From NCBI RefSeq assembly GCF_013167455.1, contig NZ_CP038328.1: a stretch of DNA of 64,000 bases. One strand, given 5' to 3'. A model generated the notes under the pieces. That model was not told where the DNA came from, made no database searches, and saw nothing but the letters and a program-made list of their open reading frames with translations. This DNA is from Escherichia coli O157:H7. GTDB lineage: Bacteria > Pseudomonadota > Gammaproteobacteria > Enterobacterales > Enterobacteriaceae. A program made the translations under genes and the position numbers. Every line of letters begins with the position of its first letter. Within the stretch, counting starts at the first letter, position 1. Shown here one piece after another: positions 171-480 of this stretch.

Positions 171-251
171 TTTCTCCCGTGTACAGGAACAGAGTTAAAA
201 AGCCGGAACCGGAATCAAATCACAGGATGACCATCTGCCAGTGGCTGGTCG

Positions 252-285
252 TAAAAAAAAGGCCGCGCCATGCGCAGCCGGAAAT
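252..285 (-). terminator. Intrinsic terminator (7-bp GC stem, T8 run on minus strand)
   Basis: Minus strand reads GGCTGCGC-ATG-GCGCGGCC followed by TTTTTTTT. Confidence 0.5.
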
Positions 286-480
286 AAAGGGATAACGATG
301 ATAGTTTGAGAAAAACAGAAATAACACTTTTGTGGCAAAGCATGGTGCCGGGTGCCTCCCGGTGAATTCAGTACCAGCACCTGAATCCGCGATTATCCCA
401 TATACCTGGTTGCTGATTGCCCCTCCGCACAGGGGGATTCACCATGCAGTAGTATTTTTAATAAACAGTAAACAAAAAAA

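What the first reader, a model, noticed from the sequence alone, without database searches (positions are those of the whole stretch)
171..480. About 200 nt non-coding hairpin-rich segment ending in a strong terminator
Between the small membrane peptide stop (481) and the terminator at 252-285 no convincing ORF exists on either strand. The minus strand has several GC-rich hairpins (CCCCT-N6-AGGGG; CCGGG-N5-CCCGG) before the terminator. This could be a prophage-encoded small RNA or simply a structured 3' UTR.
Basis: seen in the sequence. Interest (0 to 1): 0.3.

Follow-up and report, generated by a model that had tools for sequence, protein, structure and literature searches.

The report
Known prophage small RNA (STnc100/EcOnc04)
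The hairpin-rich gap is a copy of an already catalogued prophage small RNA gene (Rfam STnc100, called EcOnc04 in E. coli O157 and related to PasD in EPEC), with its own promoter and terminator; its function is still unknown.

Summary
The window is an E. coli O157:H7 chromosome; its first 14.5 kb are the lambdoid prophage called Sp6 in strain Sakai.

The minus strand at 473-307 matches Rfam RF02076 (STnc100) at 101.6 bits (threshold 47; E 2.6e-22). With the terminator at 279-253 it forms a roughly 195-nt unit (447-253). A sigma-70-like promoter (TTGATT, 18 nt, TAAAAA) overlaps the stop codon of the upstream DUF3927 gene.

It is nearly identical to EcOnc04 of Sakai prophage Sp11. That RNA crosslinks to Hfq and gives a Northern band of about 222 nt. 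The published probe matches window 306-339 exactly. The promoter, 5' end, terminator and position match EPEC PasD1/PasD2, but the PasD seed (UGUGAG) is absent.

Across 133 distinct copies from many Enterobacteriaceae, 21 of 26 base pairs show compensatory changes. I also found a covarying pseudoknot that I did not see reported.

Most likely this is an Hfq-dependent trans-acting sRNA made in the lysogen. Targets are unknown. The finding is already known, so interest is low.

The parts
479..484 (-). Candidate -35 hexamer TTGATT; overlaps the TGA stop (483-481) of the DUF3927 gene
   Evidence: Read from the sequence. The same element is aligned in PasD1/PasD2 and in Sakai Sp11/Sp17. The same geometry (TTGAC-like, 17-18 nt, TAAAT-like, then about 7 nt to helix P1) recurs in other genera. 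The consensus scanner did not call it because the -10 lacks a final T. Inferred, not mapped.
455..460 (-). Candidate -10 hexamer TAAAAA, 18 nt after the -35
   Evidence: It predicts a start within about 2 nt of 447.
253..447 (-). Predicted sRNA transcript, about 195 nt (STnc100 / EcOnc04-type). The 5' end is inferred and could lie up to about 30 nt further upstream
   Evidence: The 5' G at 447 aligns with the RNA-seq/Northern-based 5' ends of PasD1 (NC_011601 1060260) and PasD2 (741157). The 3' end is the intrinsic terminator. The Rfam STnc100 hit is at 473-307. The EcOnc04 Northern was about 222 nt.
440..447 (-). P1 5' strand GCAUGGUG (RNA nt 1-8)
   Evidence: Pairs with 347-340. Six of 8 pairs show changes on both sides across 133 distinct copies, and 88% of cells are paired.
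340..347 (-). P1 3' strand CACCAUGC (nt 101-108); closes the 108-nt core domain
421..436 (-).
   Evidence: 98.8% of cells are paired, and 3 of 5 pairs have compensatory changes. Variants CCACC/GGAUGG, UCCCC/GGAGGA and GCGGC/GCUCGC favour the bulged register over the Rfam register.
412..416 (-). Pseudoknot 5' strand UCAGC (nt 32-36, junction after P2)
   Evidence: Pairs with the P3 loop at 378-374. In an alignment-free test on 103 copies, the own helix averaged 6.33 bp, against 4.88 +/- 0.11 when loops were permuted between copies (0 of 2000 permutations as high) and 4.43 +/- 0.09 with shuffled loops. There were 75 distinct helix types.
364..388 (-). P3 hairpin GGAUUCAG-GUGCUGGUA-CUGAAUUC (nt 60-84)
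   Evidence: All 8 pairs show compensatory changes. Many stem versions were seen.
374..378 (-). Pseudoknot 3' strand GCUGG (nt 70-74, inside the P3 loop)
   Evidence: PasD1 keeps the same interaction with a different sequence (AAUGAUC/GAUCAUU). Duplex energy in isolation is about -9.3 kcal/mol.
348..362 (-).
   Evidence: 99.4% of cells are paired. The 20-mer CCGGGAGGCACCCGGCACCA found 94 loci across Enterobacteriaceae.
280..339 (-). Largely unstructured, U-rich linker (nt 109-168): the variable region and presumed Hfq-binding/seed region
   Evidence: This part differs between family types. Only 635 of the 2767 E. coli genomes with the core carry this 3' type. It covers the position where PasD carries its seed UGUGAG, just upstream of the terminator. 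The EcOnc04 probe site is 306-339. The seed role is inferred.
253..279 (-). Intrinsic terminator: stem-loop 279-261 plus U8 260-253
   Evidence: It is identical to the PasD1 terminator and forms in every fold.
167..252 (-). Leader of the downstream DUF1737-SASA esterase (nanS-p type) gene; RBS GGGAGA at 178-173, ATG at 166-164
   Evidence: It is conserved with the PasD2, Sp3 and Sp11 loci. It is not part of the sRNA.
481..648 (-). Upstream neighbour: DUF3927 small membrane protein gene
   Evidence: Pfam PF13064, 60.5 bits. Annotated in O157 genomes.

Best explanation
Window 447-253 (minus strand) is a free-standing small-RNA gene of the STnc100 family. It sits in the 'moron' site of a lambdoid prophage (Sakai Sp6 type), between the Q/pR' region and the lysis genes.

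What the sequence and homology show:
- A 108-nt core domain folds as a four-way junction (P1-P4) locked by a loop-to-junction pseudoknot.
- A roughly 60-nt U-rich linker follows, then a strong Rho-independent terminator.
- The locus is almost identical to EcOnc04, and positionally orthologous to EPEC PasD2.

What is inferred:
- In the lysogen a constitutive sigma-70 promoter (TTGATT, 18 nt, TAAAAA), overlapping the DUF3927 stop codon, starts transcription at about 447, and the terminator ends it at about 253.
- The RNA binds Hfq, as its paralogues do. It acts in trans by pairing the variable linker just upstream of the terminator with mRNAs or other sRNAs. The conserved core would serve as a stabilising or recognition scaffold.
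- After induction, Q-modified polymerase from pR' reads through the terminator into the esterase and lysis genes.

Targets and physiological role are unknown.
For: Family identity:
- Rfam STnc100 scores 101.6 bits against a gathering score of 47, E 2.6e-22.
- The window is colinear with Sakai Sp6 at 99.97% identity and with EDL933 at 99.99%.
- There is near-identity with the Sakai Sp11 EcOnc04 locus and with Sp6.

Published data on the family:
- Tree 2014 reports EcOnc04 as an Hfq-CRAC peak in 5 of 5 data sets, with a Northern band of about 222 nt and 'Ecs1525' (an Sp6 ORF number) listed as a homologue.
- The probe matches window 306-339 exactly.
- The qRT-PCR primers used to detect 'STnc_100' in STEC outer-membrane vesicles match the window exactly.
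- EDL933 carries 11 STnc100 copies, 10 of them with hundreds to thousands of RNA-seq reads. The three whose hit length (167 nt) equals that of the window's match have low ribosome coverage (0.07-0.65).
- The published PasD1/PasD2 coordinates rest on RNA-seq coverage and Northern band size, and the paper reports Hfq-dependent stability for the Pas sRNAs. The two RNAs are 173/172 nt, have RIL-seq targets, and carry their seed just 5' of the same terminator.

Architecture:
- Promoter, 5' end and terminator align with the window.
- My own model finds PasD1 starting exactly at its published 5' end.
- The promoter geometry is conserved in other genera.
- Covariation: 91.4% of cells are paired against 79.0% in shuffles; 21 of 26 pairs have compensatory changes; the score is 0.367 against 0.133; slid controls reach at most 0.076. 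A structure-blind MAFFT alignment agrees.
- 79 of 134 distinct copies have a strict intrinsic terminator within 170 nt downstream of the core.
- In other genera the copies lie between Q and the holin/lysozyme genes.
Against: - No experiment is specific to this copy. Reads and probes cross-match the four or five near-identical copies in O157.
- Tree et al. do not name Sp6 among the prophages whose Hfq peaks they show in the main text.
- The Northern size (about 222 nt) is about 27 nt longer than the 195 nt predicted. The start could therefore lie near 475-480; a CATAAT at 492-487 is a possible alternative -10.
- The promoter was not called by the consensus scanner.
- The single-sequence MFE is not exceptional (z = -1.16) and differs from the covariation-supported fold.
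- No target is known. The linker shows no better pairing to the 111 start regions in the window than shuffled linkers do.
- A core this elaborate and this conserved is unusual for a mere sRNA scaffold and may have a function of its own.
Confidence: 0.8

Rival explanations
1. Cis-acting leader or insulator. The promoter-core-terminator unit mainly controls the downstream gene (the NanS-p esterase, then the lysis genes). It would block read-through in the lysogen and permit expression only under Q antitermination, or under an unknown signal sensed by the structured core. The abundant short RNA would then be a by-product.
For: - Every E. coli copy examined lies directly upstream of an esterase or holin gene.
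- In 14 loci of other genera the same core lies 85-190 nt upstream, on the same strand, of a chromosomal kdgM porin / pectate lyase operon, mostly without a canonical terminator.
- The core has the complexity of a ligand- or protein-binding domain, with a four-way junction and a pseudoknot.
Against: - By inspection of a few copies I saw no alternative (anti-terminator) pairing shared between types; this was not quantified. The terminators of the Sp4, Sp5 and Sp17 types are unrelated in sequence to the window's.
- Linker length and sequence vary freely.
- Paralogues bind Hfq and form chimeras with many distant mRNAs.
- Tandem arrays of complete promoter-core-terminator units fit sibling sRNA genes better than leaders.
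Confidence: 0.12
2. Structured 3' UTR or processed spacer of the late operon. The RNA would be cut out of the DUF3927 or late transcript and have no promoter of its own.
For: - The unit begins only about 34 nt after the DUF3927 stop.
- The Northern sizes reported by Tree et al. are somewhat larger than the sizes predicted from the inferred start.
- PasA, a neighbouring sRNA, is reported to be processed from a longer RNA.
Against: - DUF3927 lies behind the pR'/tR' terminators, so it should be silent in lysogens. Yet the family is abundant in uninduced cultures.
- Copies in quite different upstream contexts (after tRNA genes, after stx2B, in other genera) keep a promoter-like element at a fixed distance from P1.
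Confidence: 0.05
3. A small protein is encoded here (for example the 61-aa GTG ORF at 380-195 on the minus strand, or the ORF that PGAP marks antisense to the RNA).
For: - ORFs of 42-61 aa exist.
- PGAP carries a pseudo 'hypothetical protein' over the region, and a 133-aa ORF antisense to PasD1.
- Some STnc100 copies in EDL933 have ribosome coverage above 1.
Against: - None of the four ORFs tested has a Pfam match.
- Homologous loci differ by indels of 3, 8 and 12 nt, the 8-nt one shifting the frame.
- The pattern of variation is compensatory base-pairing, not codon-like.
- The three EDL933 copies whose hit length (167 nt) matches the window's have ribosome coverage of 0.07-0.65.
Confidence: 0.02

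Closest known systems
EcOnc04 (Tree et al. 2014, E. coli O157:H7 Sakai prophage Sp11) and its listed homologue 'Ecs1525' in Sp6
   Same: The sequence is the same apart from a few SNPs from promoter to terminator, with the same neighbours (TerB-like, DUF3927, esterase). The published Northern probe matches the window exactly over its first 34 nt. The window locus is the Sp6 copy.
   Different: The window differs from the Sakai Sp6 copy by one base: U instead of C at RNA position 7, which restores a P1 pair (101.6 against 94 bits). All experimental data were assigned to Sp11, not to this copy.
Rfam RF02076, STnc100 (first listed as a Salmonella sRNA candidate); includes EcOnc27/sRNA103 downstream of stx2B, plus EcOnc05 and EcOnc06
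   Same: Same core domain (P1-P4), same prophage late-region location, multicopy.
   Different: - The window lacks the model's optional middle hairpin and its 5' extension, and matches the model's 3' hairpin only weakly.
- Its 3' part (linker and terminator) is of the PasD type, not the Sp5, Sp4 or Sp17 type.
- It has no convergent anti-sRNA partner, whereas AsxR and AgvB sit next to the Sp5 and Sp17 copies.
PasD1/PasD2 of EPEC E2348/69 (Pearl Mizrahi et al. 2021; Zhu, Shabalina and Storz 2026 preprint); EcOnc13 in Sakai Sp3
   Same: - Positional orthologue: DUF3927, then the sRNA, then esterase or holin.
- Same promoter region, same first 13 nt, same terminator and same downstream leader.
- P1, P2, P3 and the pseudoknot are retained.
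   Different: - PasD lacks P4 and does not reach the STnc100 gathering score. It scores only 30 bits with my core model.
- The PasD seed UGUGAG is replaced in the window by CCCUUUAUUUCC, and the window has a further 12-nt insertion. Different targets are therefore expected.
Prophage anti-sRNAs AsxR and AgvB
   Same: Same moron site of lambdoid prophages, and Hfq-binding.
   Different: They are 51-60 nt long, unrelated in sequence, and on the opposite strand. Neither is present in this window.

Membership tests
Rfam RF02076 STnc100 | Covariance-model score at or above the curated gathering score (47 bits) | tested here: met
   101.6 bits, E 2.6e-22, model positions 1-206, window 473-307 minus.
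Rfam RF02076 STnc100 | Core helices: closing helix P1, C-rich hairpin P2, P3, and the CCGGG/CCCGG hairpin P4 | tested here: met
   All four are present in the window. They are supported by covariation in 133 distinct copies, with 91.4% of cells paired and 21 of 26 pairs compensatory.
Rfam RF02076 STnc100 | The model's 3' hairpin (positions 172-206) and middle hairpin | tested here: not met
   The middle hairpin is deleted and the 3' hairpin is only weakly aligned. The window uses a different, PasD-type terminator at 279-253 instead. These parts vary between bona fide members.
EcOnc04 group (O157 Sakai) | Near-identity to the Sp11 EcOnc04 locus, and designation by the authors | tested here: met
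   Alignment A2. Probe match. Window equals Sp6. 'Ecs1525' is listed as a homologue.
EcOnc04 group (O157 Sakai) | Discrete transcript and Hfq crosslinking from this particular copy | not testable with these tools
   Only family-level published data exist. The copies are too similar to tell apart.
PasD (EPEC) | Synteny, shared promoter, 5' end and terminator | tested here: met
   85% mean column identity over the whole region.
PasD (EPEC) | Seed UGUGAG(G) just upstream of the terminator | tested here: not met
   The window has CCCUUUAUUUCC at the aligned position.
Hfq-dependent trans-acting sRNA | Own promoter and Rho-independent terminator with a U tail | tested here: met
   Terminator. The promoter is inferred from conservation and geometry; it is not mapped.
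Hfq-dependent trans-acting sRNA | Hfq binding and seed pairing with targets | not testable with these tools
   Paralogues bind Hfq. No target is known, and a search within the window gave nothing above shuffles.
Riboswitch / transcription attenuator | Conserved mutually exclusive pairing between the sensor domain and the terminator | tested here: inconclusive
   The window terminator contains GCAUGG, which could compete with the P1 5' strand. This is weakened in PasD2 and absent from the other terminator types. No systematic test was done.
tRNA / tmRNA | Cloverleaf detected by ARAGORN | tested here: not met
   No gene in 1-3000.

The most novel reading that the evidence does not exclude
The 108-nt core may not be a passive sRNA scaffold. 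It could be an autonomous, pseudoknotted four-way-junction RNA module with its own ligand or protein partner. Prophages would use it both as the body of sRNAs and, in cis, to gate expression of downstream genes: the NanS-p esterase and lysis genes in phages, and a kdgM porin / pectate lyase operon in Enterobacter, Klebsiella and Kosakonia chromosomes. The pseudoknot and the kdgM association do not appear in the papers I read.
Probability: 0.12. Interest if true: 0.7.

Novelty: already known. Interest (0 to 1): 0.2.

Why it matters
As a finding it mainly confirms that a tool-less reader can spot a real sRNA gene. The locus is already in Rfam and in the O157 and EPEC sRNA catalogues.

What remains open is the biology. 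STnc100 is among the most frequently annotated bacterial sRNAs. Its core is found in about half of complete E. coli genomes, in up to 11 places per genome. A copy sits next to stx2, and variants in that copy were linked to HUS-predictive features. Yet no target or function is established.

The covariation-supported fold with a pseudoknot, and the modular layout of a conserved core joined to an exchangeable 3' seed and terminator, give concrete handles for mutagenesis.

Tried and rejected
- **tRNA or tmRNA:** ARAGORN found none.
- **Other Rfam families:** only sub-threshold matches. asX2 at 215-280 is just the terminator read on the wrong strand; suhB/mmgR at 1217-1132 is the tR' region.
- **Protein coding:** the four ORFs tested have no Pfam match, and homologues differ by indels that would break any frame.
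- **Single-sequence MFE as evidence of structure:** not significant, and the nested MFE is the wrong fold.
- **Targets inside the window:** the best duplex of the linker with 111 start regions was -30.1 kcal/mol, against -29.6 +/- 2.9 for shuffled linkers. No signal.
- **Assigning the Northern-verified EDL933 'STnc100_4' to this locus:** coordinates of the old assembly do not fit (offset about 1.4 kb) and its hit length (191 nt) differs from the window's (167 nt). I do not claim it.
- **Placing the EcOnc04 CRAC peak exactly on the RNA:** the published coordinates are for an older Sakai record, shifted by roughly 130-140 nt with uncertain local offset. I can only say the peak falls on the 3' half of the core and the start of the linker.
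- **The OMV paper's proposal of pairing between STnc100 nt 5-15 and stxB:** that segment is buried in P1/P2, so I consider it unlikely. This is inference.
- **A conserved anti-terminator:** none seen by inspection.

Full report
**What is in the sequence**

The finding lies on the minus strand of a lambdoid prophage late region. In the direction of transcription the order is:
- DUF968 gene
- RusA
- antiterminator Q (2066-1245)
- two terminator-like sites at 1211-1195 and 1164-1147
- a TerB-family pseudogene
- a 55-aa DUF3927 membrane protein (648-481)
- the region in question
- a gene starting at 166 whose N-terminus is DUF1737, annotated in identical O157 genomes as a SASA-family (NanS-p type) carbohydrate esterase

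The terminator stem is at 279-261 (8 pairs) with T8 at 260-253. The four largest ORFs overlapping 171-480 have no Pfam match.

**Where the window comes from**

The 511 bases around the finding are 100% identical to many E. coli O157:H7 chromosomes. Window 1-14500 is colinear with prophage Sp6 of strain Sakai, next to potC, at 99.97% identity. Window 1-28000 matches EDL933 at 99.99%.

**Identification**

Rfam's STnc100 model (RF02076) matches 473-307 on the minus strand at 101.6 bits (gathering score 47; E 2.6e-22). It is the only such hit in the 64-kb window.

Sakai carries paralogues in four other prophages:
- Sp5, right after stx2B, 207.7 bits
- Sp17, 144.7 bits
- Sp4, 138 bits
- Sp11, 104.7 bits

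The Sp6 copy scores 94 bits.

Alignment shows the window is the 'EcOnc04 type'. It is almost identical to Sp11 and Sp6 from promoter to esterase start. A single U/C difference at RNA position 7 separates it from Sakai Sp6.

Tree et al. 2014 (PMC4104026, Table S2) list EcOnc04 in Sp11 as an Hfq-crosslinking peak found in 5 of 5 data sets. It gave a Northern band of about 222 nt, and 'Ecs1525', an ORF number falling between Q (ECs1524) and the esterase (ECs1527) of Sp6, is named among its homologues. The first 34 nt of their probe match window 306-339 exactly on the + strand, so the probe detects a minus-strand RNA. The Sp11 copy has one mismatch to it.

Primers used to quantify 'STnc_100' in STEC outer-membrane vesicles also match the window exactly. 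In EDL933, 11 STnc100 copies are listed, 10 of them with hundreds to thousands of RNA-seq reads and mostly low ribosome coverage.

**Relation to PasD**

In EPEC E2348/69, PasD2 sits between a DUF3927 gene and the esterase, and PasD1 between DUF3927 and the holin. The window aligns with both through several features:
- the promoter region (CTTGAYTTTTTTGTTTACTGTTTATTAAAAA)
- the first 13 nt (GCAUGGUGAAUCC)
- the terminator, identical to that of PasD1
- the leader of the esterase gene

The middle differs. PasD lacks hairpin P4, and its seed UGUGAG is replaced in the window by CCCUUUAUUUCC.

PasD does not reach the STnc100 threshold. A core model I built from 116 diverse copies nevertheless finds PasD1, PasD2 and Sakai EcOnc13 at 30 bits, and it starts exactly at the published PasD1 5' end. 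This agrees with the 2026 preprint of Zhu, Shabalina and Storz, who propose that PasD and STnc100 share an ancestor and can be mis-assigned to each other.

**Transcription unit**

The published PasD 5' ends, which rest on RNA-seq coverage and Northern band size, align with G447. Upstream lie TTGATT (484-479, overlapping the DUF3927 stop), an 18-nt spacer and TAAAAA (460-455).

Copies behind tRNA genes (Sp4) or stx2B (Sp5) have unrelated upstream DNA. They keep a TTGYCT, 18 nt, TAAAA(A/G) arrangement at the same distance. In other genera many copies show near-consensus promoters, such as TTGACG, 17 nt, TAAATT, ending about 7 nt before P1.

I therefore infer a primary transcript 447-253 of about 195 nt. 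The Northern estimate of about 222 nt is longer. Sizes reported for the paralogues also exceed my predictions by 7-14% in the same upstream context. A start near 475-480 (CATAAT at 492-487) is therefore not excluded.

**Structure**

A scan of one genome per species for the invariant 20-mer CCGGGAGGCACCCGGCACCA returned 94 loci. They come from Citrobacter, Enterobacter, Klebsiella, Kosakonia, Superficieibacter, Trabulsiella, Pantoea, Leclercia and others, often as tandem arrays with a period of about 250 nt. Rfam confirmed these as STnc100.

| Alignment | Cells paired | Shuffled | Pairs with compensatory change | Covariation score (observed / shuffled) |
|---|---|---|---|---|
| Structure-blind MAFFT, 116 distinct cores | 79.7% | 73.5% | 21 of 31 (includes the 5 pseudoknot pairs) | 0.233 / 0.118 |
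| Model-guided, 133 distinct copies | 91.4% | 79.0% | 21 of 26 | 0.367 / 0.133 |

No shuffle (0 of 500) reached the observed covariation score in either alignment. In the model-guided alignment, slid controls reached at most 0.076.

P2 variants favour a register with a bulged A.

The junction after P2 (UCAGC, 416-412) is complementary to the P3 loop (GCUGG, 378-374). This complementarity is maintained with at least 75 different helix versions. The own helix averaged 6.33 bp, against 4.88 +/- 0.11 when loops were exchanged between copies (0 of 2000 permutations as high) and 4.43 with shuffled loops. PasD1 has it as AAUGAUC/GAUCAUU.

The nested covariation fold (-59.3 kcal/mol) plus this helix (about -9 kcal/mol) rivals the pseudoknot-free MFE (-62.7 kcal/mol), which is a different fold. 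I did not find the pseudoknot in the papers read. I could not inspect the Rfam seed annotation.

**Modularity and distribution**

The first 108-117 nt are found in 2767 of 5426 complete E. coli genomes, in up to 11 places each. The full-length type, with this linker and terminator, is found in only 635.

In 79 of 134 distinct copies a strict intrinsic terminator lies within 170 nt downstream of the core, after a median linker of 28 nt.

Neighbouring genes in other genera are Q upstream and holins, lysozyme and spanin downstream.

**Mechanism**

The best reading is an Hfq-dependent, trans-acting sRNA. It would be expressed from its own promoter in the lysogen, with the variable linker as seed and the terminator U-tail plus A/U-rich linker as Hfq sites. 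It would be read through by Q-modified polymerase after induction.

- Shown: family membership, the fold and the terminator.
- Shown only for paralogues: Hfq binding, a discrete transcript, and the position of the seed.
- Inferred: the promoter and start site, the trans action, and the role of the core.

Published functional hints are thin. Overexpressing the stx2-linked copy (EcOnc27/sRNA103) raised fimZ and espA transcripts. Reviews list no function.

**Rivals**

- **Cis-regulatory or insulator role.** This cannot be excluded and is not exclusive of the sRNA reading. It gains some weight from 14 chromosomal loci where the same core precedes a kdgM porin / pectate lyase operon, without a clear terminator. 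By inspection I saw no anti-terminator pairing shared between terminator types.
- **3' UTR or processed spacer.** This is unlikely given the conserved promoter geometry and the family's abundance in uninduced cells.
- **Protein coding.** This is very unlikely.

**Verdict**

The element is already known as STnc100 / EcOnc04, a sibling of PasD. Interest is low. The side observations (pseudoknot, kdgM-linked copies) may merit follow-up.

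Noticed in passing
window 416-412 with 378-374 (minus strand); also L002 (PasD1) and 103 copies in L012-L105: A covarying pseudoknot links the junction after P2 to the P3 loop of the STnc100 core. It is kept with many different sequences. It is not shown in the Rfam structure line or in the RNAalifold-based figures of the 2026 preprint.
   Followed up: yes
L014, L020, L021, L026, L040, L043, L059, L061, L064, L069, L072, L085, L088, L100 (for example L021 12663-12787 minus): A 125-nt subtype of the STnc100 core (GUGUGGUG...CACCACAC) lies 85-190 nt upstream, on the same strand, of a chromosomal kdgM-family porin gene followed by a periplasmic pectate lyase gene. A LuxR-type gene sits divergently upstream. 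Most of these copies have no canonical terminator. This could be a cis-regulatory use of the domain.
   Followed up: partly
L016 1282-1915, L058 2405-2781, L033 4672-5053, L015 9846-11379, L062 418-1498, L092 3568-4612: Tandem arrays of two to four STnc100 copies, typically 250-270 nt apart (up to about 1.1 kb in L015). They occur in Superficieibacter, Leclercia and others. The few copies checked carry their own promoter-like element and terminator.
   Followed up: partly
window 1245-1130, minus strand: Directly downstream of the Q gene there are two terminator-like hairpins (1211-1195 and 1164-1147). This looks like the pR'/tR' short-transcript unit, the position of StxS in Stx phages. It gives only a weak sub-threshold Rfam match (suhB/mmgR, 20.5 bits).
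   Followed up: no
window about 1100-645, minus strand: The TerB-family gene between Q and DUF3927 is a pseudogene with an internal stop, annotated as such in O157 RefSeq genomes. The ORF list shows it broken into pieces.
   Followed up: no
window 4097-4271, minus strand: A hok/sok type I toxin-antitoxin locus lies in the prophage early region (Rfam sok, 114 bits; hokD is annotated in identical genomes).
   Followed up: no
window 441 (RNA nt 7) compared with L006 14915-15255: The Sakai Sp6 copy has C where the window has U. That breaks a U-A pair in P1 and costs 7.6 bits. O157 strains therefore differ in whether this copy has an intact closing helix.
   Followed up: partly
L001 4375-4518; L002 1301-1699; L003 1698-1939: RefSeq carries 'hypothetical protein' CDSs or pseudogenes antisense to the sRNA. 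One is a 133-aa ORF opposite PasD1; fragments lie opposite the window locus and PasD2. These are probably annotation artefacts over a non-coding RNA gene.
   Followed up: partly
L010 387-448 (+) with 449-639 (-); L011 423-628 (+) with 630-682 (-): In Sakai Sp17 and Sp5 the STnc100 copy converges on an anti-sRNA gene (AgvB and AsxR respectively). The Sp6-type locus in the window has no such partner: its terminator is one-directional, and nothing matches those families.
   Followed up: yes
window 49421-49589 and 51439-51775: Core-genome RNAs SraB and the rne 5' UTR element are present. They helped place the window on the chromosome.
   Followed up: no
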